Shown here: one piece after another, positions 7,707 through 28,165 of the stretch | Layout of the letters: the number at the start of each line of letters is the position of its first letter | Position numbering within the stretch: the stretch's first letter is position 1 | Source: Candidatus Saccharimonadota bacterium | GTDB taxonomy: Bacteria; Pseudomonadota; Alphaproteobacteria; CAJXXZ01; 1604HC | Assembly (NCBI RefSeq): GCF_008189285.1 | Contig: NZ_CP043315.1 | Span: forward strand, 90,001 to 122,000 | Direction of reading: 5' to 3' | Length of the DNA stretch: 32,000 nucleotides | Position numbers and translations under genes: made by a program | Notes under the pieces: model-generated | The model's input: the letters and a program-made list of their open reading frames with translations, nothing else | Database searches by the model: none | What the model was told of the DNA's origin: nothing

Positions 7707-7720
7707 AATATTTACTAATG

Positions 7721-7793
7721 TAGGCTTGGCAGGATTTGAACCTGCGACAACACCGTTATAAGCGATGTGTTCTAACCCCTGAACTACAAGCCC
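7721..7793 (-). tRNA. tRNA-Ile2-like with anticodon UAU (AUA decoder); no encoded CCA
   Basis: The reverse complement reads GGGCTTGTAGTTCAGGGGTTAGAACACATCGCTTATAACGGTGTTGTCGCAGGTTCAAATCCTGCCAAGCCTA. The acceptor is GGGCTTG/CAAGCCT with a G1.U72 wobble. The anticodon stem is CATCG/CGGTG with loop CTTATAA. The T arm is GCAGG-TTCAAAT-CCTGC. The body resembles E. coli tRNA-Ile2 (ileX: ...CTCATAA...GGTCGCTGGTTCAAGTCCAGC), but position 34 is T rather than C. Confidence 0.8.
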
Positions 7794-12973: not shown

Positions 12974-13152
12974 TATCCAATAATATGTTGCAGAGCAATT
13001 AATTGCAATTAAATTAATTTAAGAATATTGCAAAGCTGGATTGAAAAATCATTAAATTTATTAAGAAAATTAGGTAAATCTTAAAATCTTTAGAAAGCTA
13101 AATAAATCTTAAAATCTTGAATATTATGCGAAAATCTTCTAGCATGGATTGA

Positions 13153-14346
13153 ATGAATCTTAAAAAAACCTTCTCAGCTTTTTGGACTTTATCCGGATCA
13201 ATGTTGGAATATTATGACTACATGTTGTTTACGTATATGATGCCTTCTTTTGGGCCTATTTTGCTTCCATTTGAAGATAAATCGAAAAGTTTATTGTTTG
13301 GATATGCTTTGTTGTTTGCTGCATCTATATTGAGGCCAGTAGGGGCATGGTTTATGGGATATGTTGGAGATGTAGTAGGCAGAAAGCAAGGATTAATGAT
13401 TTCTATACTATGCATATCTATTGCCTCTTTGGGAATGGGGCTAGTTCCAAGCTATCAAACTATAGGAATATTCTCTGTGTACATAGTCTTTATGTTGAGA
13501 ATATTGCAAGCAATGAGCGCTGGTGGAGATTTAAATGGATCAGCTATATTTTTAATAGAGCATCTAGGAAAAAGGCCTGGATTTGCTAGTGGAATTGCTT
13601 GGGCTTCTACTGTTTTAGGTATGATTTTGGCATCATTTGCGAATTATATTGCTGTACAATACGAGCCAAATGGATGGCGTTATGCCTTTATTATAGGTGC
13701 ATCTATAGGTTTTGTAGGAATGATTATGAGAACTCACATTGTTGAGGGGGAGGGGTTCAAAAAGAAACCAAAGATAGATTGTTCTCCAAAGAGCATTTAT
13801 CCATATTTATCTGTGATTGGAATGGGAGCAGGTATAGGTGGAATGTACTATTACACAATGGTATTTTGCTTTAACTATATTAGACATCTGCATGATTGGA
13901 ATATAAATCTAGCATTGTGGCAGACATTTTGCTTTGCTATATATGCTGCATCTATTGTTTTGTCTGGATGGCTTAGCGATTATTTCAATTTAAATAAAAT
14001 AATGAAGTTTTTTGCATTTGCAATTATAGCATTTGCTTTTCCGTGTTTTATGTTTATGAAGTGCAATTACATGTTATTTTCTATTATTATGGTTATTTTG
14101 CTAGGAATGTTTGTTGGGCCATCGCATAATTTAACATTCAGTTTATTTCCTCCAAGATATAGATATAGATCAATTTCGGTTTGTTATGGAATAGGGACCT
14201 CTATTATAGGAGGCGCGACTTTGTATGTATGTACTAAATTTATAAGTACAAGTTTTCCTGCAATTTGGCTTATTTCCTGCGCGTTAATGGGCTACCTTGG
14301 AATTATATTTGCTGAAAAAAGTCCAAAAATAGAATACATAGATTGA
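13153..14346 (+). CDS. MFS transporter, ProP (proline/betaine)-like family
   Basis: It has about 12 hydrophobic segments. 'GYVGDVVGRKQGLMISILCISIASLGMGLVPSY' parallels the ProP/MHS block 'G..GDR.GR...L......M...T..IGL.P.Y'. Confidence 0.75.
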   Translation: MNLKKTFSAFWTLSGSMLEYYDYMLFTYMMPSFGPILLPFEDKSKSLLFGYALLFAASILRPVGAWFMGYVGDVVGRKQGLMISILCISIASLGMGLVPSYQTIGIFSVYIVFMLRILQAMSAGGDLNGSAIFLIEHLGKRPGFASGIAWASTVLGMILASFANYIAVQYEPNGWRYAFIIGASIGFVGMIMRTHIVEGEGFKKKPKIDCSPKSIYPYLSVIGMGAGIGGMYYYTMVFCFNYIRHLHDWNINLALWQTFCFAIYAASIVLSGWLSDYFNLNKIMKFFAFAIIAFAFPCFMFMKCNYMLFSIIMVILLGMFVGPSHNLTFSLFPPRYRYRSISVCYGIGTSIIGGATLYVCTKFISTSFPAIWLISCALMGYLGIIFAEKSPKIEYID

Positions 14347-14466
14347 TTGTTAATAAAAAATTACACTGTTAGTAATGTGAAGGCGCATATAAATTCATCA
14401 TATGAGCTATTTAACTGTAGATTTGTTTTCAAGATTCATTTTATTGATAATCTAGATATTATTTTA

Positions 14467-15762
14467 CTAAGCTTGATTTACAAATTCAATTAGAGAAATA
14501 GACGCTGGGTTATGCGATGAAGATGGATTGTAAATGCATAATTTTTCATTTTGCGCAAAGAATCTATCATTTGAATTTATTTTTATCATAATTTGCTGAT
14601 CCGAAATATTATTTATTGTTGCCAATTCTCTTTTTATTCCAAGAACTCTTGTTTCAATTGCTGTGTTTAACATTGATTCACTGGCAATAATACAATCTTG
14701 CATCCATTTATTCATATCAGAAGATCTAGCATTTTCATCAAAATCTACAAGAAGGAAAATTTCTTCATTAATAAGATTTTCATTAATCTGCATGAAGAAA
14801 ATTGATTCCTTTTGTTCGAAATTATGCAATATATATGGTTCTTTTATTTCATCAAGAATTCTTTGTATAAATGCAAATAAAGGGTTGAAGCTTTTTAGCA
14901 AATTATCATGATGATAAATCGGAATGTCATGAAATATAGCATCAACATTAAATATTGAAACATGGGCAATAAGATTTATCAGAGCAGAAAATAGAGCATT
15001 TGGATGAGAATTATTTGAATGTATAATATGCTCTACAGGCAAGATTCCTTGCATAAAAATAGAATGGATTGTAGATGGATTGTATGTCATTTTATTGACA
15101 TGAATCTGATTTTTTATATGCATTGTTTTATCTTTTAGCAATTTAATTAATCGCTTAATCTCATGAATAATATTAGTTGCCAACTTTACATTAATGCATG
15201 GAGAATCATATAAATCAATTTTTGGTCCAAAATTACTTGAAATCACTGAGCATATTTGTATTCCAGTATGGTTAACTGGAATTTCATTGAATGCAATTTT
15301 ATAGATTGGTTTTAATTTGAAGACACATGTTGAATTTTCTCCATTATTATAATCTTGAGTAGAATCTATTTGCACAGGTTGGTAGCTTTTATCATGTGAA
15401 TCCGACTCATATGTGTAGTGAGAATCTGATTTCACTAGAAATATCTTAAGAGACTGATTCTTTTTCATATGTTCTTTGAATTTTATTTCTATAGATTCAT
15501 CTTTATTCATTGGATAAAATATAATGCTTTTATCTTCTAAAATTGCTTCAATATTATTCAGGTATATTATTCCATCTTGCAAGTTGGAGTAATCCAAATC
15601 CATATCTACAATTCCCCAATGGTAAGGCATAGTTTTTGACAAGATATAAGACAATGCATTTTCTTGAGCTGTGTCAGATTGTTGGAAATGATGAGGAGAA
15701 AGAGGCATTCCTTCATACCAATGAATTTTGTAAGGACAGAATTTCTTTGTATTAGCATTCAT
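14467..15762 (-). CDS. tssK: Type VI secretion system baseplate protein TssK (ImpJ/VasE family)
   Basis: The N-terminus 'YKIHWYEGMPLSPHHFQQSD...PYHWGIVDMDLDYSNLQDGIIYLNNIEAILEDKSIIFYP' matches the TssK hallmark W.EG..L.P.HFQQ.D ... P..WG......d...L..G......l..i.pDG. Size is 431 aa, typical for the family. It overlaps the preceding TssJ-like gene by 11 nt. Confidence 0.75.
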   Translation of the reverse strand: MNANTKKFCPYKIHWYEGMPLSPHHFQQSDTAQENALSYILSKTMPYHWGIVDMDLDYSNLQDGIIYLNNIEAILEDKSIIFYPMNKDESIEIKFKEHMKKNQSLKIFLVKSDSHYTYESDSHDKSYQPVQIDSTQDYNNGENSTCVFKLKPIYKIAFNEIPVNHTGIQICSVISSNFGPKIDLYDSPCINVKLATNIIHEIKRLIKLLKDKTMHIKNQIHVNKMTYNPSTIHSIFMQGILPVEHIIHSNNSHPNALFSALINLIAHVSIFNVDAIFHDIPIYHHDNLLKSFNPLFAFIQRILDEIKEPYILHNFEQKESIFFMQINENLINEEIFLLVDFDENARSSDMNKWMQDCIIASESMLNTAIETRVLGIKRELATINNISDQQIMIKINSNDRFFAQNEKLCIYNPSSSHNPASISLIEFVNQA

Positions 15763-16264
15763 GATTTGCTCCTATTGAATATGTTTGTCTGTATTTTAAT
15801 CCGCTTTTGATTTTCCCTACAGAAGAGGCTTTTTCAATTGCATCTGGTCCAAGCTTAATGTTTAGATGCTTAACTTTAGGAGAAAGAGTAAAGCTGTTCT
15901 TTTTATCTGATTCATAAGACATAAATACTATTGCTCCGTAACATACTGGAGACCAATTTGCGATGCAAAATGCCTCTAATTTTGTTTGCGGTAGAGGTTC
16001 AAATGACCAAACTTTAATATGCTGAGAATTATGCGCAAGCAATGATTTCCTATTTTGAAAGTACTCTTTTCCTTTCATTTTAGAAATTGTATCCCATAAG
16101 CTTTGCTCAAATACTTGAATCAAGTCCAATCTTACAACAGAATTATTGTTCATATTTTGCGATGATAATATGCCTAATGTTTCCAAAGAATATCGTTTTT
16201 GTTTGTTTTCGCATCCTATTATCATGATTGTTAAGGCGCATAACATGCTTTTCCAATATTTCAT
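15752..16264 (-). CDS. tssJ: TssJ-like outer-membrane lipoprotein (T6SS SciN/VasD-like)
   Basis: The signal peptide carries the lipobox 'MIIGC'. Size is 170 aa. 'ILSSQNMNNNSVVRLDLIQV' and 'YGAIVFMSYES' parallel the TssJ blocks 'l.a...vNp....P.vvRlYqL' and 'y.gvvAafrd'. It sits in the canonical position immediately 5' of tssK. This is a by-eye similarity only. Confidence 0.5.
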   Translation of the reverse strand: MKYWKSMLCALTIMIIGCENKQKRYSLETLGILSSQNMNNNSVVRLDLIQVFEQSLWDTISKMKGKEYFQNRKSLLAHNSQHIKVWSFEPLPQTKLEAFCIANWSPVCYGAIVFMSYESDKKNSFTLSPKVKHLNIKLGPDAIEKASSVGKIKSGLKYRQTYSIGANHEC

Positions 16265-16705
16265 TTATTTGTTTTCTCTCTCTGTTATTGTTGCAATTAT
16301 ATGATATTCAGATCTTATGATTTCAGATGTTGTTAAAGCATGCTGAAAATCAAATTTATCTTTCAATTTTACTGAATATATATCTGAATTTTGACTTATA
16401 ACAACTCCTAATTCACCCACTTTATCAACAAAATCTTTTGCATCTTCTTTGTTTTTAAATGAACCTAAATTAATTTCATATTTTTTATGGTCAATTTTTT
16501 TAATATTTGATTTAGATTGCACATTTTGTATCATATATTTATGTGATTTTGAGTAATAAGACTGAATAAAAAAACCACATGCAAATGATAAACATGAGAA
16601 AATTACTAGTGTTAAGATAAAAAATACCGTAAAGCTAATGCCGACCCTTTGCTTTGGCTCAATCAGTTTATTTCCTAAATTATTTCTTAAAATTTGATTC
16701 TGCAT
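16265..16705 (-). CDS. Single-pass membrane protein with C-terminal SPOR-like (peptidoglycan-binding) domain
   Basis: The TM segment is 'ISFTVFFILTLVIFSCLSFACGFFI'. The C-terminal 'KYEINLGSFKNKEDAKDFVDKVGELGVVISQNSDIYSVKLKDKFDFQHA' follows the SPOR pattern (y.vqlGaF.n.enA..l..kl...G........y.V.vG.f....A). Its TAA stop (16265-16267) abuts the tssJ-like ATG (16262-16264) with zero spacer. Confidence 0.4.
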   Translation of the reverse strand: MQNQILRNNLGNKLIEPKQRVGISFTVFFILTLVIFSCLSFACGFFIQSYYSKSHKYMIQNVQSKSNIKKIDHKKYEINLGSFKNKEDAKDFVDKVGELGVVISQNSDIYSVKLKDKFDFQHALTTSEIIRSEYHIIATITERENK

Positions 16706-16832
16706 AATTCATCTTCCAAAATGTTTATATGGCTTAATGATTGATAAATAGTAAATTTTGCCCTATTAAACATGAATTATATTCAATCCATTGATATATA
16801 TTTCCTTTTATTGTAAAATTTGATGGTCAAAT

Positions 16833-16905
16833 AGGAGTGTAGCTCAATTGGTAGAGTATCGGTCTCCAAAGCCGACGGTTGGGGGTTCGAGACCCTCCAC
16901 TCCTG
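16833..16905 (+). tRNA. tRNA-Trp (anticodon CCA); no encoded CCA end
   Basis: The sequence is AGGAGTGTAGCTCAATTGGTAGAGTATCGGTCTCCAAAGCCGACGGTTGGGGGTTCGAGACCCTCCACTCCTG. The acceptor is AGGAGTG/CACTCCT with discriminator G73. The anticodon loop is CTCCAAA. It is nearly collinear with E. coli tRNA-Trp and sits in the conserved position 5' of secE. Confidence 0.9.
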
Positions 16906-16920
16906 CTCAGAAAGGATTCT

Positions 16921-17115
16921 ATGATTTTTTCTAAGATTAGAAGTTTCACCAACAGTATTAAATCAGAGTGGAGGCATCTTAGATGGCCCAGCAAAGCTGT
17001 TGTTTTAAGCTCTCTTAAATTAGTTATTATATTTTCAACAGTTTGCTCAATTATTTTTTTTGGAATTGATTTTATATTTTCAAATATAATAGGATGGGTG
17101 TTGAATAATGCATAA
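16921..17115 (+). CDS. secE: Preprotein translocase subunit SecE
   Basis: 'KSEWRHLRWPSK' is followed by one TM helix, the SecE C-terminal core. It sits between tRNA-Trp and nusG. The track ORF (16879) begins inside the tRNA. I use the ATG at 16921 (MIFSKIR...). Confidence 0.7.
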   Translation: MIFSKIRSFTNSIKSEWRHLRWPSKAVVLSSLKLVIIFSTVCSIIFFGIDFIFSNIIGWVLNNA

Positions 17116-17851
17116 AATTGATAACAATAGAGTTGAATACAGGATTAAAATAGCCGATGGATTCGAGAATAAGTTTAAGGATTTTATAGCCTCTCATAGC
17201 GATTTAATTTCTGATTGCAATTTAGAAGATGGAATTTTTATTGCTAGCTTTGCAAGTCAATCAACATATGAAGAATTTTATAAATTGGCTTCTAGAGAAA
17301 TGGATATTGTCTATGCTAAAAAAGATATCGATGATGATGCGCGTAGTAACTGGTATGCAGTTAACATTCCATCCAGAAGAGAAATCGGTATTGAGCAAAA
17401 ATTTATTGAATATTCTATAAATAACGAAGGAATTAATGAAATTCTTTTGCCTAAAACTGAATCTACTGTTTGGAAAGATCAAGTTAAAAAAACTGTAAAA
17501 GAATGCATGAGTCCTGGATATATATTCATAAAAACAACAAGTCCTGCATATATTATGAAGGCTGCGGCGGATATAGATGTTAGGGTTAGTGTTTTAGATC
17601 ATCCTGTATCAGAAGATGAAATAGAGAAACTAAGAATCAAAGAAAAGGAAGATTGCAATTTTGGTCAAAAACAGTCATATTCTGTAGGAGACCATATTTG
17701 TGTTTGTGATGGAACATTTAAAGGTCACAACGGATATATAGAAGAAATAGATGAGAAAAATGAAGGCCAGTTGAAGGTTGTTTTGCCTGTATTTGGAAGA
17801 GGCGTTTCTGTTAAACTTGGTTTTTCTGATATAAGAAAGGTGAATAAATGA
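17108..17851 (+). CDS. nusG: Transcription termination/antitermination factor NusG, with an ~80-aa N-terminal extension if the 17108 start is used
   Basis: The NGN domain starts at 'NWYAVNIPSRREIGIEQKF' (aa 81). The KOW motif is 'GDHICVCDGTFKGHNGYIEEID'. An alternative start is Met65 (ATG at 17300). Confidence 0.85.
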   Translation: MHKIDNNRVEYRIKIADGFENKFKDFIASHSDLISDCNLEDGIFIASFASQSTYEEFYKLASREMDIVYAKKDIDDDARSNWYAVNIPSRREIGIEQKFIEYSINNEGINEILLPKTESTVWKDQVKKTVKECMSPGYIFIKTTSPAYIMKAAADIDVRVSVLDHPVSEDEIEKLRIKEKEDCNFGQKQSYSVGDHICVCDGTFKGHNGYIEEIDEKNEGQLKVVLPVFGRGVSVKLGFSDIRKVNK

Positions 17852-20041: not shown

Positions 20042-23000
20042 ATGTCATTTTATAAGGATTTTATTCGTAAATCTTTTGCAAAAACTGATGAGAGTTGTTT
20101 GTTAGTAAACGATTTAATCAGATTGCAAAGGGATTCTTATGATGAATTTTTGCAAGCAAATGTTTTGCCTGAAAAAAGAAAAGATAAGGGGCTTCAACTT
20201 GTTTTAAAGGAATTTTTCCCTATTGTTGGAATGTCGGGTCATTTGCGATTAGAATTTTGTGGATATGATGTTGCAGAGCCAATTTTTAGCTCTTTAGAAT
20301 GCAAAAGAAAAGGCCTTACATATAGCGGCGTTATTAGCATTTTATTGAGACTTGTTGTTAGCGAAACAGATGAGTCTGGAAAAACATCAGTCAAAGATAT
20401 TAGAGAGCAAAGTGTATATATTGGCGATTTGCCTTTTATGACCGATGCAGGAACATTTATTGTTAACGGAACTGAGAGAGTTGTTGTTTCTCAAATGCAT
20501 AGATCTCCAGGTGTATTTTTAGATATTGAGAAAAAGACAGGAACAACAGGACCTTCTCACGATATACATATTGCAAGAATTATACCTTATAGAGGATCTT
20601 GGATGGATATAGAATTTGACTCTAGTAACTTGCTTTATATAAGAATTGATAAAAATAGAAAAATACCTCTTTCTGCTCTTTTGATGTCTTGTGGAAATGA
20701 AGACTTGTCCAAAGAAGGAATGTCAAAAAGTCAAATTTTAAGAGAATTTTACGATACTGTTAAGTTTGAAGTTTTGGAAGATGGGTTAAAATTTAATATA
20801 GATTTTAAGAAACTGACTGGATCTAAATTAGACTTTACTATTTTTAACGAAGAAACAAGAGAAGTTGTTCTAAAAGAAGGGGAATTGATTAATAAAAGCT
20901 TGGCCTCTAAATTAGGAAAAATAAAAAATGATTTCTTCGTTGAGAAAAATGATATTAAAGACATATTTTTATGTGATGATATTGTTGGTGAGCTAAAAAG
21001 TGCTACAATTCCTTCTCATGAAGAATTAATAGAAAATAACATAACTTCATTTGATGGAATAATTATTGATGGATATCATAATGCTCCTTATATTTTAGAT
21101 TCGTTGAATGCATATTCATATAATAATCGTATTGAAGCTATGGTAGTAATTTATAATGCTATGAGACCGGGAGAAAGAGTCAAAATAGATGTTGTTCGCT
21201 CGTTATATAGATCATTATTTTCAGATCCTGATTATTACAATTTATCTCAAGTCGGAAGATTAAAGCTAAATCAAAGATTGAATTTGAATAGCTCTTTAGA
21301 GTGCATGACATTAACTCAAGATGATATTTTAGAAACATTAAAAGCTCTGATTAGGCTTAAAAAAGGATTAGAGCCTGTAGATGATATAGATAGCTTGGAA
21401 TTTAGAAGAGTTAGATCTGTTGGTGAATTAGTAGAAAATCAATGCAGAATGGCAATGGGAAGATTCTTGAAATCTGTTAAAGATAAGATGAGTGGATTAG
21501 ATATAGAATCAGTTATGCCATCTGATTTGATCGCCCATTCAAAATCTTTTACTGGTGCTGTTAGAGATTTCTTCTGCACTTCTCAATTTTCTCAATTTAT
21601 GGATCAAACAAATCCATTGTCAGAAATAAGTCACAAGAGACGTTTGTCTGCTTTTGGTCCAGGTGGTATTAGTAGAGAAAGATCAGTTTTGGAAGCCAGA
21701 GGTTTGCATGCAACTCATTATGGAAGAATTTGCCCTGTAGAGACTCCTGAGGGTCAAAATATTGGATTGATTAACTCATTATCTATTTTTAGTAAAATTA
21801 ATAAATTTGGTTTTATTGAGACGCCTTATCATCCTGTTGTTGATGGAAAAGTTCAATCTGATATAGTTTATTTCTCAGCTTCTGAAGATAAGATGTATGT
21901 AATTGCACATGCTGATCCAGATATAATAGATGATGATGGAAACATCACATCCTCTGCTGTGAAATGTAGATACAATCATGATTATATTATTTCAGAACCT
22001 AAAGACATTCAATACATAGATGTGTCTCCTAAGCAGATTATTTCTGTAGCCTCATCATTAATTCCTTTTGTTGATCACAATGATGCTGGAAGAGCTTTGA
22101 TGGGTGCAAATATGCAACGTCAGGCAGTTCCTTTGATAGAGCCTGATGCTCCATTGATTGGTACTGGTGTTGAAAGATCAATTATTCATAGATCTGCAGT
22201 TGCTTTGTATTCTAAAAGAGCTGGAGAAGTTGTTAGAGTAGACTCAACTTCTATCATGGTTAAAGTTGATGGATATGATATTGATGTATACAATTTAAGA
22301 AAATTCGAAAAAACAAATGATGGAACATGCATTAATCAAAAGCCTACTGTATTTGTTGGTCAAATGATTGCAGAAGATGAAATGATTGCAGAAGGATCTT
22401 CCATTCATAATGGAGAGCTTTCTCTTGGAAAAAATGTTAAGATTGCCTTTCTTTCATGGAAAGGTGGAAACTATGAAGACGCTGTTCTTATCTCTTCTAA
22501 ATTAGTTAATGATTTTTCATCTATACATCTTGAGAAATATGAAATTTCTGCGCGTGAAATTAAACAAGGTGTAGAGCAAATCACAAGAGATATTCCTAGA
22601 ATTAGCGAAGAATTTTTAATGAATCTGGATGAAAGTGGAATTGTTAATATTGGAGCTAAAGTAAAAGCTGGAGATGTTCTTGTTGGAAGAGTTACTCCAA
22701 AAGCTGAAGGCCCTGCTAGTGCAGACGAAAGATTGCTAAGAGCAATTTTTGGTGATAGAGCTTCCGATGTTAAAGATAGTTCTTTGAGAGTGCCTCCTGG
22801 ATTTTCTGGAACAGTTGTAGATGTTCGTGTTTTCACAAGAAAGGGAATGGAAAAGAATGAAAGAGCTCTTGTTATTGAGCATGAGCTTCTAAAGAATTTG
22901 CAAGATAAAAAGAATATTGAAATTGGAATTTTAAGAAAAAGCTTTGCTGGAAAACTGTCAGAGTTTATAGTTGGCCAAACATTAAGTAGAAAAATTGATG

Positions 23001-26000
23001 AGTTTAAACCTGGAATTATAATTGATTCTAGTATTTTTGCTCAAATATCTGAAACAAAAGATTTGAATATATTTTCTAAATCTGTAAAAGGGTTGCCAAA
23101 AGAAGCTGACGAGCTTTTGAAATCATATACTTCTAAAATTGAAAGCATATCAAGAAAGTTTTCAAGAGAAGAGAAGAAAATTTCTGCTGGAGATGATTTG
23201 TCTTCAGGTGTTATGGTTACTGTTCAAGTATTCTTGGCTGTAGAAAGAAAACTACAGCCTGGAGATAAAATTGCTGGTAGACATGGTAACAAAGGAGTTG
23301 TAGCAAGGGTATTAAACCTTGAAGACATGCCTTATACATCTAATGGAGAGCCAGTTGATTTGATATTCAGTTCTTTGGGTATTTCTTCTCGTATGAATCT
23401 TGGTCAAATTTTAGAAACTCATTTAGGATGGGCGTCTTTTAATTTAGGTAAAAAAATAAAAGAAATGCTTTCAGATGTTAAAGATGGAATCAAACCTTTA
23501 GAAGAACTTCGAGAACTTATAGATAAAGTATATGAAGATAATATAGAGATAAAATCAAAAACTGATGATGAAATTTCTAAATTTGCTGCTAATTTGACAG
23601 ATGGTATTCCATTTAGTTGCCCTGCATTTGATGGAGCTAGCCCTGAAAAAATTGGTGAAATGCTTGAGTTAGCAGGATGCGATTCTTCTGGACAAGAAGT
23701 GTTATATGATGGTCAAACTGGTATTCCGTTTGATCAAAAAGTTACTGTTGGAATCATGTATATTATGCAGTTGCATCACTTTGTTGATGAAAAAATACAT
23801 GCTCGTTCTGTTGGTCCTTACAGTTTGATAACACAGCAACCTCTAGGTGGTAAATCTAACTTAGGTGGTCAAAGATTTGGAGAAATGGAGGTATGGGCTC
23901 TTCAAGGTTATGGAGCTGCTTATACAATCAGAGAATGTTTGAATGCAAAGTCAGATGACCCAATAGGTCGTATGGAAGTTTTCCAAGCTATAAGCCAAGG
24001 TTATAACGTATTCGATCAACATGGTGTGCCAGAATCATTCCGTGTATTGTTGTATTCTTTGAGATCTTTGTGTCTAAATGTAAAATGTTTGTCATTGATT
24101 GATGAAAATCTTGTAGAGCAAGATTTAAGCAATTTGAGTCATTTAGATGCTTTGCAAATTTCTATTGCTAGCCCTGAAGATATATATAAGTGGTCTTATG
24201 GTGAAGTAACTAAAGCTGAAACTATTCATTATAGAACTTTGAAACCAGATTCTGACGGTTTGTTCTCAGCAAGAATTTTCGGGCCGATTAAAGATTATGA
24301 ATGCTTGTGTGGAAAATATAAGAAATTCAAATACAAAGGCGTAGTTTGTGAAAAATGTGGAGTTGAAGTTACTTTATCTAAAGTAAGAAGAGAGAGAATG
24401 GGTCATATTAATTTGGCTGCTCCTGTTGCTCATATGTGGTTCGCAAAATCTCTTCCAAGCAGAATTGGTATAATGCTTGACTTATCTGCTAGAGATTTAG
24501 AATCAATTTTGAATTTCGAAAAGTATATTGTTATAGAGCCTGCAACTTCTCCTTATGAAAAAGGAACTTTGTTTAGTGAAGTAGAGTATGAATCAGTTCT
24601 AGAAGAATATGAAGATGAAGGATTTGAAGCTGATACTGGAGCAGTTGCATTAGAAAGACTTTTGAAAGAAATAGATCTTGAAGAAGAAGTTGTTTCTATT
24701 AATAAAGAATTAGATGGAAACCCTAATGATACAAAAAGAAAGAACTTGATTAGAAAGTTGAAGATTCTTGAAGGATTTAGAAATTCTGGCACAAGACCTG
24801 AGCTTTGCATAATGAGAGTCCTTCCTGTTCTTCCTCCTGAGTTGAGACCATTAGTTACTCTTGAAGGTGGAAGATTTGCCTCATCAGATATTAATGATTT
24901 GATGAGAAGGGTGATAAACAGAAACAATAGATTAAAGAGATTGATTTCTTTGAGCGCTCCTATGGTTATTTTGCGTAATGAGATTCGAATGCTGCAAGAA
25001 TCTATTGATGCATTGTTTGATAATGAAAGAAAAAGTAGACCAATTACTCATGCAAATAGCAAGAGACAATACAAATCACTTGCTTACTCTTTGAAGGGTA
25101 AAAGAGGTATGTTTAGACAAAATCTTCTTGGTAAAAGAGTTGACTATTCAGGTCGTTCTGTGATTGTTGTTGGTCCTGAATTGAAGTTAGACCAATGTGG
25201 TGTTCCTAAGGAAATGGCTCTTGAGTTATTTAAGCCTTTTGTGATTTCTAGATTAGAATTAAGAGGGTTTGCTGCTACATATAAAATAGCAAAAACAATG
25301 GTTGAGCATAAGAGACCTGAAGTGTGGGATGTTCTAGATGAATGCATTAAAGATCACCCTGTTCTTTTGAATAGAGCTCCTACATTGCATAGATTAGGTA
25401 TTCAAGCTTTCAACCCTGTATTAGTGGATGGTAAAGCGATTAGATTGCATCCATTGGTGTGCACAGCTTACAATGCTGACTTTGATGGAGATCAAATGGC
25501 TATACATATACCTCTATCTATTGAGGCGCAAATCGAAGCTAGAGTTTTGATGATGTCTACTAATTGCTTGTTAAACCCTTCAAACGGTAAAGCGATTGTT
25601 AAACCTTCAAAAGATATGGTTTTGGGTCTTTATTATCTTACATTGATGTTTGAAACTGAGGCTAAAATTATTGTTAGAGATATAGCAGAAGCTGAACATG
25701 CAATGGAAAATGGAAAAATTAAAATAAGCACTCCTATTATAATTGAAATAGGTGATGAGCATGAATCTAGAGTTGTCACAACAACTTTGGGTCGTATGAA
25801 AGTTTATGAAATTACTCCAAAGCATCATAGAATTGAATTTGCTATGATCAATAGAGCTTTGAATACCGGAAATATTGCGGAACTTGTTGAAGCTGTTTAC
25901 GATCATTGTGAAAAAGATGTGGCTGTTAAATTCTTGGATCAACTTATGGGTCTAGGGTTCTTGTATGCAACAATATCTGGAGCTTCTTTTGGTAAGGATG

Positions 26001-28165
26001 ATTTAATTGTTCCAGAAGAAAAGCATGAATTAATTGCAAAAACAGATAAGTTGATTGATGAATATCACCAACAGTATATGGAAGGTATTATCACTAATGA
26101 GGAAAGACATAACAAAGTTACAACCGCATGGTCTAAATGCTCTGATTCTGTAGCTGAGCTTATGATGAATAGAATGTCTGCTATAAAAGATGGAAGAATG
26201 AACTCTGTATATATGATGTCTGATTCTGGAGCTAGAGGTTCTGATATGCAAATTAGGCAAATTTCTGGTATGAGAGGTTTGATTTCTAGGTCAGACGGAT
26301 CTATTCAGGAAGATCCTATTAAAAATAGTTTTAAAGAGGGTTTAACAGTGCCTGAATTCTTGTACGCTTCAGAGGGTGGAAGAAAAGGACTTGTTGATAT
26401 GGCGTTAAAAACAGCTAACTCTGGTTATTTGACTAGAAGATTAGTTGGTGTTTCTCAAGATTGTGTTGTTCAGCATGAAGATTGTGGTACAGAAGATGGA
26501 ATTACTATGAAATCTGTTTCTCAATCTGGAAGAATAATAGTTTCTTTGGGAGAAAAAGTTTATGGAAGAGTTTTGACTGAACCTGTTTCATTCGTAGTAG
26601 ATGGAAAAGAAACTTCATTAAATGTTGGGGATATAATCACTAAAGATATTGCCGAAGAAATTGATAAATCAGATATAGAAGAAATAATAGTAAGATCTCC
26701 AGTGTCTTGTGAAAATATAGATAGCACAGTTTGTGTAAAATGTTACGGTTATGATTTGTCTAAATCTGACACTGTTCAAGATGGTGAATCTGTTGGAGTT
26801 GTTGCTGCTCAATCTATTGGTGAGCCAGGAACTCAGCTAACTATGCGTACCTTTCACTTTGGAGGAGCTGCTCAAAACATTTCTGATGATTCATTTATTG
26901 ATTCAAATGTAGATGGTGTGGTAATTGCTGATGAAATTAAAACTATTCGCAAGAGCGATCATTACATTGTTATGAGTAGAAACAACGAATTGAAGATTAA
27001 AACTGATAAGAAAACATTTACTTATAATGTTCCTTATGGTGCTAAGTTATTCTTTGGAGACAAGGATAAAGTTAGCGCTGGATCCAGAATTGCTGAATGG
27101 GATTTGCATAATATTCCTATCTTGTCTGAGGTTTCTGGTCATGTCGTGTATCAAGATTTAGTAGAAGGGATTTCTCTTAAGAGTTCCGTTGATGAATCCA
27201 CTGGTTCAAGTAATTACATAATAAGTGATTGGAGCATTGTTTCTAAAAAGGCAAATCTACAACCTGCTTTGAAGATTGAAATTGAGGGTAGTGATAAGGA
27301 AAACTATTATGGTCTTTCTATCAATGATGTGATTTTGGTTAAAAATGGAGAATTTGTTGAGGCTGGAGAAATTATTGCCGCTCGAAGTCAAGGTGCAATG
27401 AAAACAAGAGATATTGTGGGTGGTTTGCCTAGAATTGAAGAATTGTTTGAAGCTAGAAACCCTAAATCAATTGCGATTTTAAGCGAAACTGATGGTAAGG
27501 TAAGTTTTGGAAAAGATTACAGATCCAAGAAGAAAATTATTGTTACATCTAGTGATGGGCACGAGCAAGAGTATGTTTCTGCTAAAGATAGATATATTGT
27601 TGTGCAAGATGGAGAGTTCGTAAAGAAAGGTCAAATAATAGTTGATGGAAATGCCTCTCATCATGATATGTTAAGAATTCTTGGAATTGAAGATATGGCA
27701 AATAACTTCATAGAAGAGGTTCAACAAGTATATAGAATGCAAGGTATTACTATTAATAACAAGCATATTGAAGTTGTTTTAAGACGAATGTTGAGTCAAG
27801 CTGAGATTATAGATCCAGCATCCAGCACTTTCTTGACAGGTGATATTATGGATATTAAGAAAATTAATACTCTTAATAAAATGCTTAAAGAAAGCAAAGA
27901 AGAAAGAATTAAATTCAGAAGAGTGCTTCAAGGTATTACAAAAATATCTACCTCATCTGGAAGCTCTTTCTTGTCTGCTGCTTCATTCCAAGATACAGCA
28001 AGAGTTCTGACAAATGCTGCTTTGTTTAATGAAATAGATTGGATTGTTGGTATTAATGAAAGTATTATGGTTGGATCATTGATTCCTGCTGGAACTGGAG
28101 CATTCACCAGAAGAGAAGAGATCTCTAAGAAAGAAAAATTGCAAAAGGAGTTCCTGTGCAATTAA
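20042..28165 (+). CDS. rpoBC: Fused DNA-directed RNA polymerase beta-beta' polypeptide (2707 aa)
   Basis: Beta blocks are '[14 protein letters not shown]', '[13 protein letters not shown]' and '[16 protein letters not shown]'. They continue without a stop into beta' blocks: '[27 protein letters not shown]', the Zn finger '[23 protein letters not shown]', the catalytic '[13 protein letters not shown]', and '[16 protein letters not shown]'. Confidence 0.95.
   Translation: [2707 protein letters not shown]

What the first reader, a model, noticed from the sequence alone, without database searches (positions are those of the whole stretch)
14467..16705. Orphan T6SS-like tssJ-tssK module, co-operonic with a TM+SPOR-like protein, set against tRNA-Trp and lacking tssL/tssM
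Seen in the sequence:
- Three minus-strand ORFs are packed as one unit. The stop of the first gene abuts the start of the second at 16264/16265, and the second and third overlap by 11 nt (15752-15762).
- The 431-aa product carries the TssK hallmark N-terminus ('HWYEGMPLSPHHFQQSD ... PYHWGIVDMDLD..L.DG').
- The 170-aa product has a lipobox (IIGC). Its TssJ-like size and blocks, and its position 5' of tssK, also fit.
- The 146-aa product is a single-pass membrane protein with a SPOR-like C-terminus.

Established knowledge: in canonical T6SS(i) clusters tssJ-tssK is followed by tssL and tssM, which form the membrane complex. The peptidoglycan anchor is normally an OmpA/Pal-like domain on TssL, TagL, TagN or TagP.

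Here tssK is followed after 120 bp by a convergent MFS gene. No tssB/C, hcp, vgrG, tssE/F/G, tssL/M or clpV is seen anywhere in the 32 kb.

The module occupies the slot directly 5' of tRNA-Trp-secE, which many bacteria fill with tuf. The surrounding genome otherwise looks like a reduced Rickettsiales-type genome, where T6SS is not a standard feature.

Three inferences are possible:
- A dispersed T6SS whose membrane anchor uses a SPOR domain.
- A decaying remnant that still has intact ORFs.
- A repurposed TssJ/TssK pair.
Basis: partly seen in the sequence, partly recalled or inferred. Interest (0 to 1): 0.7.

Follow-up and report, generated by a model that had tools for sequence, protein, structure and literature searches.

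The report
Overlooked TssJ-like and SPOR T6SS genes
This three-gene operon in a tiny protist-endosymbiont genome is one detached piece of an already published, scattered type VI secretion system, but it holds a TssJ-like lipoprotein that the literature reports as missing and a conserved cell-wall-binding (SPOR) partner protein.

Summary
Three tightly packed minus-strand genes (16705→14467) encode a membrane protein with a SPOR domain, a 170-aa lipoprotein and TssK.

The window comes from Candidatus Cytomitobacter indipagum (Holosporales, not Rickettsiales). Its genome paper lists tssA,B,C,E,F,G,H,I,K,L,M plus vgrG and PAAR elsewhere in the genome. So the module is not orphan; it is a fragment of a dispersed T6SS.

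TssK is certain: TIGR03353 scores 160 bits against a cut-off of 100.

The lipoprotein fails the curated TssJ models. However, its good AlphaFold model matches only solved TssJ-type lipoproteins (Serratia Lip, Francisella IglE). In 49 of 75 related loci, a member of its family sits exactly in the tssJ slot of [SPOR]-lipoprotein-tssK-tssL-tssM. The genome paper and a 2025 review say TssJ is missing in this lineage, and this result contradicts that.

The SPOR partner is Pfam-positive. It lies upstream in 24 of 44 loci that have the lipoprotein next to tssK, and in 0 of 25 that do not.

All three genes appear to be under purifying selection. The trio was cut off from tssL-tssM in the Cytomitobacter lineage.

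This is a modest novelty: a divergent TssJ and a SPOR-type peptidoglycan accessory.

The parts
16265..16705 (-). Gene 1: bitopic inner-membrane protein (146 aa). Short cytoplasmic N-terminus, one TM helix, C-terminal SPOR (peptidoglycan-binding) domain.
   Evidence: ORF. Pfam SPOR 23.4 bits against GA 21. 5 of 6 close orthologues are SPOR-positive. 10 of 10 more distant positional orthologues have a full-length SPOR domain at 29-59 bits. The single-sequence model's top PDB matches are DedD, CwlC and DamX SPOR domains.
16568..16642 (-). Predicted transmembrane helix of gene 1 (about residues 22-46, ISFTVFFILTLVIFSCLSFACGFFI).
   Evidence: Hydrophobic stretch read directly from the translation and conserved in all orthologues. 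Helical, with pLDDT 85-92, in the model.
16268..16489 (-). SPOR domain of gene 1 (about residues 73-146).
   Evidence: Pfam match covers residues 73-112. Beta-alpha-beta-beta-alpha-beta topology at residues 75-141. Foldseek hits to SPOR structures.
15752..16264 (-). Gene 2: TssJ-like lipoprotein (170 aa), a member of a large family that Pfam and NCBIfam do not name.
   Evidence: AF2 model pLDDT 84, pTM 0.79. Foldseek top 5 are Serratia Lip/TssJ 4a1r (E 3e-4, prob 1.00) and Francisella IglE 5amt (prob 0.97). A family member lies immediately upstream of tssK in 49 of 75 loci. No curated HMM hit.
16211..16222 (-). Lipobox I-I-G-C (residues 15-18; Cys18 would be the lipidated first residue of the mature protein; the next residue is Glu).
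   Evidence: Read from the translation. Cys column conserved in 10 of 10 and 140 of 148 family members. +2 residue analysis.
14467..15762 (-). Gene 3: tssK, the T6SS baseplate subunit (431 aa).
   Evidence: TIGR03353 8.7e-47, 160 bits against cut-off 100; PF05936 1.8e-32. 29 homologues, all PF05936-positive.
16706..16832 (.). 127-bp spacer shared with the divergent tRNA-Trp gene; presumed promoter region of the operon. It has an exact TATAAT at 16781-16776 on the minus strand and a GGAAGA Shine-Dalgarno-like element 6 nt before the ATG.
   Evidence: Sequence read. The consensus scan called no minus-strand promoter here and found no more sites than expected by chance, so this part is inferred, not shown.

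Best explanation
The three genes form one operon of the dispersed type VI secretion system of Candidatus Cytomitobacter indipagum. The operon supplies the parts that connect the cytoplasmic baseplate to the cell envelope.

- TssK (shown by profile match) is the baseplate subunit. In studied systems it docks the TssEFG-VgrG baseplate onto the cytoplasmic faces of TssL and TssM.
- The 170-aa lipoprotein (fold and gene position shown; function inferred) is the lineage's divergent TssJ. It would be exported, lipidated at Cys18, and bind the periplasmic end of TssM to nucleate the membrane complex.
- The 146-aa protein (domain shown; role inferred) sits in the inner membrane with its SPOR domain in the periplasm. 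There it would bind glycan strands of peptidoglycan and tether or position the membrane complex in the wall. OmpA/Pal-type domains on TssL, TagL, TagN or TagP do this job in other T6SSs.

The ancestral arrangement, still seen in many Holosporales-like genomes and some Rhodospirillales including Azospirillum brasilense, is SPOR-tssJ-like-tssK-tssL-tssM. In the Cytomitobacter/Nesciobacter lineage a rearrangement cut the block after tssK. That left this trio beside tRNA-Trp-secE, with tssL, tssM and the other components elsewhere in the 628-kb genome.
For: Identity of the genome: 100% match to FZC35_00465 of Ca. C. indipagum.

Rest of the T6SS present elsewhere: George et al. Table S3 lists tssABCEFGHIKLM, vgrG and PAAR. 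Dispersed blocks are typical of Holosporales.

TssK: curated models passed.

Lipoprotein:
- Confident model. Its only convincing PDB matches are TssJ-type lipoproteins.
- Lipobox conserved.
- An exhaustive profile search finds a family of 1,122 proteins, none named by Pfam. Only 3 of 148 are weakly recognised by the TssJ or IglE models.
- The family occupies the tssJ slot directly upstream of tssK-tssL-tssM in 49 of 75 loci from several phyla.
- The Azospirillum member scores 67 and 140 bits against my profiles. Its A. brasilense Sp7 counterpart, AMK58_18785, is listed as TssJ and was strongly induced at the protein level.
- Weak colinear sequence similarity to canonical TssJ.

SPOR partner:
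- Pfam-positive in the window and in 15 orthologues.
- Upstream on the same strand in 24 of 44 lipoprotein-tssK loci, against 0 of 25 loci without the lipoprotein.
- Embedded in the complete Azospirillum cluster.
- TssL-SPOR fusions have been reported, so SPOR as a T6SS wall anchor has precedent.

Operon: abutting or overlapping start and stop codons here and in every relative.

Selection: intact, length-conserved ORFs in five reduced genomes. pN 0.17-0.29 against pS 0.59-0.78. TssK is as conserved as ribosomal protein L1.

Peptidoglycan synthesis genes (murE/F-type ligases, mraY, uppS) lie in the same window, so a wall to bind exists.
Against: - The lipoprotein does not reach any curated TssJ model. 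TIGR03352 gives at best 16.8 bits in a relative against a cut-off of 31.6, and PF12790 gives nothing.
- The 90% hhalign probability falls to 5.6% (E 0.007) once the signal peptide and lipobox are removed.
- Foldseek TM-scores are only 0.45-0.61.
- I could not inspect the rest of the C. indipagum genome. The presence of tssL, tssM and the other genes rests on the published table.
- The same paper reports no Hcp, so whether the machine fires conventionally is open.
- The window's SPOR match covers only half the domain, and its structure model has low confidence (pLDDT 62).
- 20 of 44 lipoprotein-tssK loci have no detectable SPOR gene upstream on the same strand, so SPOR is an accessory of a subclade, not a core part.
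- An acidic residue follows the lipidated Cys in 8 of 10 close relatives. In E. coli, Asp at that position retains lipoproteins in the inner membrane, so outer-membrane location is not assured.
- Co-transcription and all protein contacts are inferred.
Confidence: 0.75

Rival explanations
1. The SPOR protein is simply the cell's FtsN/DedD-like division protein. It lies next to the T6SS genes by accident of genome compaction and has no role in secretion.
For: Its architecture (short cytoplasmic tail, one TM helix, linker, C-terminal SPOR) is that of FtsN, DedD and DamX. The best structural match is DedD. The Azospirillum counterpart hits the FtsN and RlpA models weakly. 20 of 44 lipoprotein-tssK loci lack it.
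Against: The linkage is conserved across very different genomic neighbourhoods and large divergence (TssK 27% identical), often with overlapping stop and start codons. It occurs in 24 of 44 loci with the lipoprotein and 0 of 25 without. In Azospirillum two such genes sit inside the complete T6SS cluster.
Confidence: 0.15
2. The lipoprotein is not a TssJ equivalent. It is a different beta-sandwich periplasmic accessory that happens to occupy the same gene position, and the system truly lacks TssJ, as published.
For: No curated TssJ model is met. Similarity of the mature domain to canonical TssJ is weak (E 0.007). TM-scores are around 0.5. T6SSs that work without TssJ are reported in other bacteria such as Agrobacterium and Acinetobacter (my recollection, not checked here).
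Against: The top five PDB matches are all T6SS TssJ-type lipoproteins, and probability then drops from 0.97 to 0.35 or less. The order lipoprotein-tssK-tssL-tssM is exactly canonical. Bridging members reach TIGR03352 (best 2.8e-5) and the IglE model. The Azospirillum member is already labelled TssJ.
Confidence: 0.12
3. A repurposed TssJ/TssK pair that now works outside a contractile T6SS, for example as an envelope or adhesion module.
For: The trio is physically separated from tssL and tssM. The published inventory lacks Hcp, so the apparatus may be unconventional.
Against: Sheath, baseplate, membrane-complex, ClpV, VgrG and PAAR genes are all reported as retained in a 628-kb genome, which implies selection for the whole machine. 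The same trio is contiguous with tssL-tssM in less reduced relatives. No TssK function independent of the T6SS is known (my knowledge).
Confidence: 0.06
4. A decaying remnant of a T6SS whose ORFs happen still to be intact.
For: The genome is undergoing extreme reduction. The module is detached from its partner genes. C. indipagum has 16 predicted pseudogenes.
Against: All three ORFs are intact, of conserved length and syntenic in five genomes whose synonymous sites are saturated. pN is far below pS. TssK is as conserved as rplA and the neighbouring MFS transporter.
Confidence: 0.03

Closest known systems
Canonical T6SS(i) tssJ-tssK-tssL-tssM block (e.g. Photobacterium toruni pCECT9189-1, locus L008; E. 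coli and Vibrio clusters in L089 and L094)
   Same: Same gene order: a small lipoprotein directly upstream of tssK, followed in less reduced relatives by tssL and tssM. TssK passes the same curated models.
   Different: Here the block is cut after tssK. The lipoprotein is too divergent for TIGR03352 or PF12790. The gene upstream is a TM-SPOR protein rather than the FHA protein TagH seen in L008, L089 and L094.
TssJ structures: Serratia marcescens Lip (PDB 4a1r) and Francisella IglE (PDB 5amt)
   Same: Lipoprotein of similar size. The predicted beta-sandwich, with a helical insertion after the second strand, superposes on both (TM 0.45-0.61, Foldseek prob 0.97-1.00).
   Different: 10-14% sequence identity. 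No curated-model hit. An acidic residue follows the lipidated Cys. TssM binding is untested.
Azospirillum brasilense T6SS cluster (locus L007; Sp7 genes AMK58_18765-18785)
   Same: Contains the same lipoprotein family directly upstream of tssK, preceded by TM-SPOR genes. This is the nearest free-living relative of the arrangement. The lipoprotein is already listed as TssJ there.
   Different: Complete contiguous cluster (tssL and tssM downstream; tssB, C, F and G nearby). Two SPOR genes instead of one. High GC and larger proteins.
Peptidoglycan-anchoring T6SS accessories: TagL, TagN, TagP, TssL with an OmpA/Pal-like extension, and the TssL(DotU)-SPOR fusions noted by Broms et al. 2012
   Same: A membrane-anchored protein presenting a peptidoglycan-binding domain in the periplasm and encoded with the membrane-complex genes. 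SPOR has been seen fused to TssL in 14 proteins.
   Different: The domain is SPOR, not OmpA/Pal (no OmpA hit). It is on a separate small bitopic protein rather than fused to TssL. SPOR domains recognise glycan strands stripped of peptides (established for FtsN, DamX and others; my knowledge), which implies different wall sites from OmpA-type binding.
FtsN / DedD / DamX division proteins
   Same: Identical architecture and the same domain family. DedD is the best structural match.
   Different: Conserved linkage to tssJ-like and tssK rather than to division genes. Much shorter linker in Cytomitobacter.

Membership tests
TssK (TIGR03353 / PF05936) | Score above the curated cut-off of the family models | tested here: met
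   TIGR03353 160.2 bits against cut-off 100. PF05936 113 bits against 23.4. Residues 12-378 of 431 are covered.
TssK (TIGR03353 / PF05936) | Encoded with other T6SS core genes, at least in relatives | tested here: met
   tssL follows tssK in 36 of 44 lipoprotein-tssK loci with enough downstream sequence, with tssM and often tssB further on. This is not so in this window.
TssK (TIGR03353 / PF05936) | Trimer that bridges TssFG and the TssL/TssM cytoplasmic domains | not testable with these tools
   Needs complex prediction with partner proteins I could not retrieve, or biochemistry.
TssJ (TIGR03352 / PF12790 T6SS-SciN) | Score above the curated cut-off of the family models | tested here: not met
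   No hit at E<=10 for the window protein. Best relative: 16.8 bits against cut-off 31.6. 2 of 148 family members reach E<=1e-3. No Pfam hit in 148.
TssJ (TIGR03352 / PF12790 T6SS-SciN) | Lipoprotein signal peptide with lipobox Cys | tested here: met
   I-I-G-C at residues 15-18. Cys conserved in 10 of 10 and 140 of 148 members.
TssJ (TIGR03352 / PF12790 T6SS-SciN) | TssJ beta-sandwich fold | tested here: met
   Model pLDDT 84, pTM 0.79. The top four PDB hits are chains of Serratia Lip/TssJ (E 3e-4 to 1e-3, prob 1.00, TM 0.45-0.57) and the fifth is IglE (prob 0.97, TM 0.41/0.61). The next hit has prob 0.18.
TssJ (TIGR03352 / PF12790 T6SS-SciN) | Detectable sequence homology of the mature domain to canonical TssJ | tested here: inconclusive
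   hhalign gives 90.5% probability, E 1.3e-6, with signal peptides included. After trimming them it gives 5.6%, E 0.007, over 111 colinear columns, against negative controls of E 0.16-0.26.
TssJ (TIGR03352 / PF12790 T6SS-SciN) | Gene immediately upstream of tssK in a tssJKLM block | tested here: met
   A family member lies within 400 nt upstream of tssK on the same strand in 49 of 75 loci.
TssJ (TIGR03352 / PF12790 T6SS-SciN) | Outer-membrane location and binding to the TssM periplasmic C-terminal domain | not testable with these tools
The acidic +2 residue makes sorting uncertain.
SPOR domain proteins (PF05036) | Score above Pfam gathering threshold | tested here: met
   Window protein 23.4 bits against 21, but only profile positions 2-46 of 76. 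5 of 6 close orthologues hit. 10 of 10 distant positional orthologues give full-length matches at 29-59 bits.
SPOR domain proteins (PF05036) | RNP-like beta-alpha-beta-beta-alpha-beta fold | tested here: inconclusive
   The single-sequence model has the right topology, but domain pLDDT is 53-82 and mean pLDDT is 62. Top PDB hits are DedD, CwlC and DamX, with weak E-values of 0.045-0.14.
SPOR domain proteins (PF05036) | Binding to denuded peptidoglycan glycan strands | not testable with these tools
   Requires sacculus pull-down with the purified domain.
OmpA/Pal-type T6SS peptidoglycan anchors (TagL, TagN, TagP, extended TssL) | OmpA/Pal/MotB-like peptidoglycan-binding domain | tested here: not met
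   No OmpA-family hit in any of the three proteins at E<=1. The protein is therefore not a member; it may work like one.
Complete T6SS in the genome | Presence of the core genes tssA-C, E-H, K-M, vgrG and hcp | not tested
   Only 32 kb of this genome was available. The published Table S3 lists all except tssJ and hcp.

The most novel reading that the evidence does not exclude
The TM-SPOR protein is a previously unnamed class of T6SS accessory. It is conserved in a clade spanning Holosporales endosymbionts and some Rhodospirillales. It would tether, or spatially target, the TssJLM membrane complex to denuded glycan strands of peptidoglycan, replacing the OmpA-type anchors of other T6SSs. Together with the cryptic TssJ family, this would mean that the 'TssJ-less, modified' T6SS described for Holosporales actually has a conventional three-part membrane complex plus a new wall anchor.
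Probability: 0.5. Interest if true: 0.55.

Novelty: new variant of a known kind. Interest (0 to 1): 0.4.

Why it matters
The T6SS is regarded as the main candidate host-interaction device of Holosporales. It is one of the few large machines kept in these roughly 620-kb genomes.

The genome paper and a 2025 review describe it as non-standard, partly because TssJ is 'missing'. If a TssJ-like lipoprotein is encoded directly beside tssK, one of the two claimed deviations goes away, and the gene inventories of these symbionts need revising.

More generally, about 1,100 cluster representatives of this lipoprotein family are invisible to the Pfam and NCBIfam TssJ models. Surveys that score tssJ presence with those models will therefore under-call it.

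The linked SPOR protein suggests a testable alternative way of fixing a T6SS in the cell wall. Genetically tractable Azospirillum carries the same genes, so it is an available test bed.

Tried and rejected
- An exact-sequence look-up of the window's TssK found no contig on record. The rest of the C. indipagum genome therefore could not be read, and the T6SS inventory had to come from the literature.
- Sequence-only searches of the lipoprotein profiles against PDB chains, and of the SPOR alignment, found nothing relevant. Only fold comparison did.
- Pfam and NCBIfam scans of the lipoprotein and its family were negative or sub-threshold.
- The attractive hhalign result (90% probability) was mostly signal peptide and lipobox, so I downgraded it.
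I used TssK instead and screened the loci with my own HMMs.
The single-sequence model has low confidence.
- The promoter/terminator scan gave no more sites than chance and no terminator, so operon boundaries remain inferred.
- The first 165-aa Azospirillum ORF I picked upstream of tssK was a spurious frame. The real lipoprotein gene is L007:14503-14952.
- An SLT-like ORF in the Azospirillum cluster could not be confirmed.
- An apparent truncation of dnaE at the window's end is an artefact of the window edge.
- dN/dS values are unreliable because synonymous sites are saturated. Only pN far below pS is used.


Full report
**1. What is in the sequence**

- 16265-16705 (146 aa)
- 15752-16264 (170 aa)
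- 14467-15762 (431 aa)

The first stop codon abuts the second start. The second and third genes overlap by 11 nt.

tRNA-Trp(CCA) lies 127 bp away on the other strand (16833-16906). It is followed by secE, nusG, rplK, rplA, rplJ, rplL and a 2,707-aa fused rpoB-rpoC. A convergent MFS transporter gene ends 120 bp beyond the tssK stop. GC content of the module equals that of its flanks.

I found no other T6SS gene in the 32 kb. I searched all stop-to-stop segments with 150+ T6SS queries, including 55 TssL, 54 TssM and 22 TssB sequences from relatives.

**2. Source organism and prior knowledge**

The 431-aa protein is 100% identical to FZC35_00465 of Candidatus Cytomitobacter indipagum, on a 628,024-bp contig. 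This is a Holosporaceae endosymbiont of diplonemid protists, not a member of the Rickettsiales.

- George et al. (bioRxiv 10.1101/719211) list tssA,B,C,E,F,G,H,I,K,L,M, vgrG and PAAR for this genome (Table S3). [quoted passage not shown]
- A 2025 review repeats that TssJ and TssD appear to be lacking. It also notes that the T6SS is conserved in almost all Holosporales genomes.
- Midha et al. 2021 describe dispersed blocks such as [tssK-tssL-tssM-tssA] as the rule in three Holosporales families. They found a 'tssJ-like gene' by InterProScan in one symbiont.

So the 'orphan' reading conflicts with the published inventory. I could not check that inventory myself, because only this window of the genome was accessible.

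**3. TssK**

TIGR03353 scores 160 bits (cut-off 100) and PF05936 gives E = 1.8e-32. All 29 database homologues carry PF05936. This assignment is secure.

**4. The 170-aa lipoprotein**

It has a lipobox (IIGC, Cys18) but no Pfam or NCBIfam match, even at E <= 10.

*Orthologues.* Orthologues with a lipobox lie directly upstream of tssK in:
- C. primus, Nesciobacter abundans and two further reduced genomes, all beside secE;
- the much more distant L006 (TssK 27% identical), in a different neighbourhood.

*Fold.* An AlphaFold model built on a 10-sequence alignment is confident (pLDDT 84, pTM 0.79). Foldseek against the PDB returns:
- the four chains of Serratia marcescens Lip (= TssJ, 4a1r; E 3e-4 to 1e-3, prob 1.00, TM 0.45-0.57);
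- then Francisella IglE (5amt; prob 0.97);
- then nothing above prob 0.35.

*Sequence.* The link to canonical TssJ is weak.
- Three relatives give sub-threshold TIGR03352 hits, the best being 16.8 bits against 31.6.
- Profile-profile comparison with seven PGAP-annotated TssJ proteins gives 90.5% probability.
- My control, which removed the signal peptide and lipobox, cut this to 5.6% (E 0.007; 111 colinear columns; negative controls E 0.16-0.26).

*Family size.* An exhaustive HMM search finds 1,122 cluster representatives at E <= 1e-3. Of the top 148, none matches any Pfam model. Only two reach TIGR03352 and one reaches the IglE model.

**5. Gene-position evidence**

A scan of one genome per species with a TssK alignment returned 80 loci. 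They come from Holosporales, Rhodospirillales (Azospirillum, Stellaceae, Magnetovibrionaceae) and also from Acidobacteriota, Desulfobacterales, Thioploca and others.

I screened them with my own HMMs:
- 49 of the 75 loci with enough upstream sequence have a family member within 400 nt upstream of tssK on the same strand.
- tssL follows tssK in 36 of 44 of these, and tssM also follows in most of them.

The common order is therefore [SPOR]-lipoprotein-tssK-tssL-tssM(-...tssB). That matches the canonical tssJKLM block seen in Photobacterium, E. coli and Vibrio.

The loci where tssK is not followed by tssL are Cytomitobacter/Nesciobacter (L009-L011) and their nearer relatives (L013-L015, L021). 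This indicates a lineage-specific break after tssK.

In A. brasilense the lipoprotein (L007:14503-14952) scores 67 and 140 bits against my profiles. Its Sp7 counterpart is listed as TssJ and was strongly induced at the protein level.

I conclude that this is the lineage's TssJ equivalent. It is shown by fold and position and is weak by sequence. TssM binding is untested.

**6. The SPOR protein**

- The window protein scores 23.4 bits against GA 21, over half the domain.
- Five of six close orthologues hit SPOR.
- Ten more distant positional orthologues, including two in the Azospirillum cluster, all have full-length SPOR domains at 29-59 bits.
- All share the FtsN/DedD-like layout: cytoplasmic tail, one TM helix, low-complexity linker, SPOR domain.
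- The single-sequence model has low confidence (pLDDT 62) but the right beta-alpha-beta-beta-alpha-beta topology. Its top PDB matches are DedD, CwlC and DamX.
- A SPOR gene lies upstream on the same strand in 24 of 44 lipoprotein-tssK loci, and in 0 of 25 loci lacking the lipoprotein.
- Broms et al. 2012 had already noted 14 TssL/DotU proteins fused to SPOR and compared them with OmpA-type anchors.
- My literature searches found no description of a separate TM-SPOR T6SS accessory. The library is incomplete, however.

**7. Function or decay?**

Synonymous sites are saturated, so dN/dS is not reliable. Still, pN is far below pS for all three genes in C. indipagum versus C. primus:

| Gene | pN | pS |
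|---|---|---|
| TssK | 0.17 | 0.74 |
| Lipoprotein | 0.21 | 0.78 |
| SPOR protein | 0.29 | 0.59 |

TssK (70% identity) is as conserved as ribosomal protein L1 (72%). Together with intact, syntenic ORFs in five genomes of about 620 kb, this excludes a decaying remnant.

**8. Mechanism proposed**

- Shown: the identities and domains, the conservation of the trio, and its ancestral contiguity with tssL-tssM.
- From established T6SS biology: TssK links the baseplate to TssL/TssM, and TssJ binds the TssM periplasmic domain and nucleates the membrane complex.
- Inferred: the SPOR protein tethers or positions that complex on peptidoglycan. The symbiont can still make peptidoglycan, as mur ligase genes, mraY and uppS are in the same window. 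Also inferred: the three genes are co-translated from one transcript that starts in the spacer shared with tRNA-Trp.

**9. Caveats**

- The rest of the T6SS is taken from the literature.
- Hcp is reported absent.
- The residue after the lipidated Cys is acidic in 8 of 10 close relatives, so outer-membrane sorting is uncertain.
- SPOR is an accessory of a subclade only.

**10. Verdict**

The module is an ordinary part of a known, dispersed T6SS.

It adds two things of modest novelty:
- a TssJ-like lipoprotein where the literature says there is none, belonging to a large family that the curated models miss;
- a conserved SPOR-domain partner that probably acts as a wall anchor.

Noticed in passing
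window 16879-17115 (+), probable true start near 16921: A SecE gene is present directly after tRNA-Trp. It is 60% identical over 60 aa (E 3e-27) to the Pfam-positive SecE of C. primus. The genome paper's Table S3 lists secABDFY (no secE) for C. indipagum, so this looks like another annotation miss. The longest ORF (TTG start) overlaps the tRNA, so the real start is probably an internal Met.
   Followed up: partly
window 20042-28165 (+): rpoB and rpoC are fused into one 2,707-aa ORF carrying all Rpb2 and Rpb1 domains. The same fusion (2,708-2,723 aa) is called in C. primus, Nesciobacter and L004. Such fusions are known from Wolbachia and Helicobacter (my recollection).
   Followed up: partly
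window 7720-7793 (-): ARAGORN calls a tRNA-Ile with anticodon UAU. Most bacteria read AUA with a lysidine-modified CAU tRNA, so this may relate to loss of tilS in the reduced genome.
   Followed up: no
window 17108-17851 (+): NusG is 247 aa, and the Pfam NusG N-terminal domain begins only at residue 81. An N-terminal extension of about 80 aa seems conserved in length in relatives (245-255 aa), and Pfam recognition of NusG is weak or faint in several of them.
   Followed up: no
window 16211-16222 (-) and alignment A3: The residue after the lipobox Cys is Asp or Glu in 8 of 10 Holosporales-like members of the lipoprotein family, whereas Ser and Gly dominate in the wider family. In E. coli, Asp at +2 is a Lol-avoidance (inner-membrane retention) signal, so the location of this TssJ-like protein may differ from the canonical outer-membrane one.
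   Followed up: partly
L007 12213-14497 (Azospirillum brasilense p1): The complete Azospirillum T6SS cluster carries two consecutive TM-SPOR genes (13021-13527 and 13745-14497) upstream of the tssJ-like gene. Before them lies an ORF with a lytic-transglycosylase-like motif (…MSVVESG…). A PDB sequence search of that ORF found nothing, so the SLT assignment is unconfirmed.
   Followed up: partly
L025, L027, L029, L030, L036, L044, L051, L057, L063, L064, L077 (mostly Holosporaceae MAGs with similar isolate names) and L037, L043, L060: In these Holosporales genomes tssK (often with tssL-tssM) has no adjacent lipoprotein or SPOR gene. I did not determine whether the lipoprotein is elsewhere in those genomes or truly lost.
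   Followed up: no
L018 4894-5760 (-) and L022 5895-6899 (-): In Insolitispirillum and a Magnetovibrionaceae MAG, a SPOR-domain ORF lies near the lipoprotein-tssK pair but on the opposite strand. The linkage may therefore persist in a divergent orientation.
   Followed up: no
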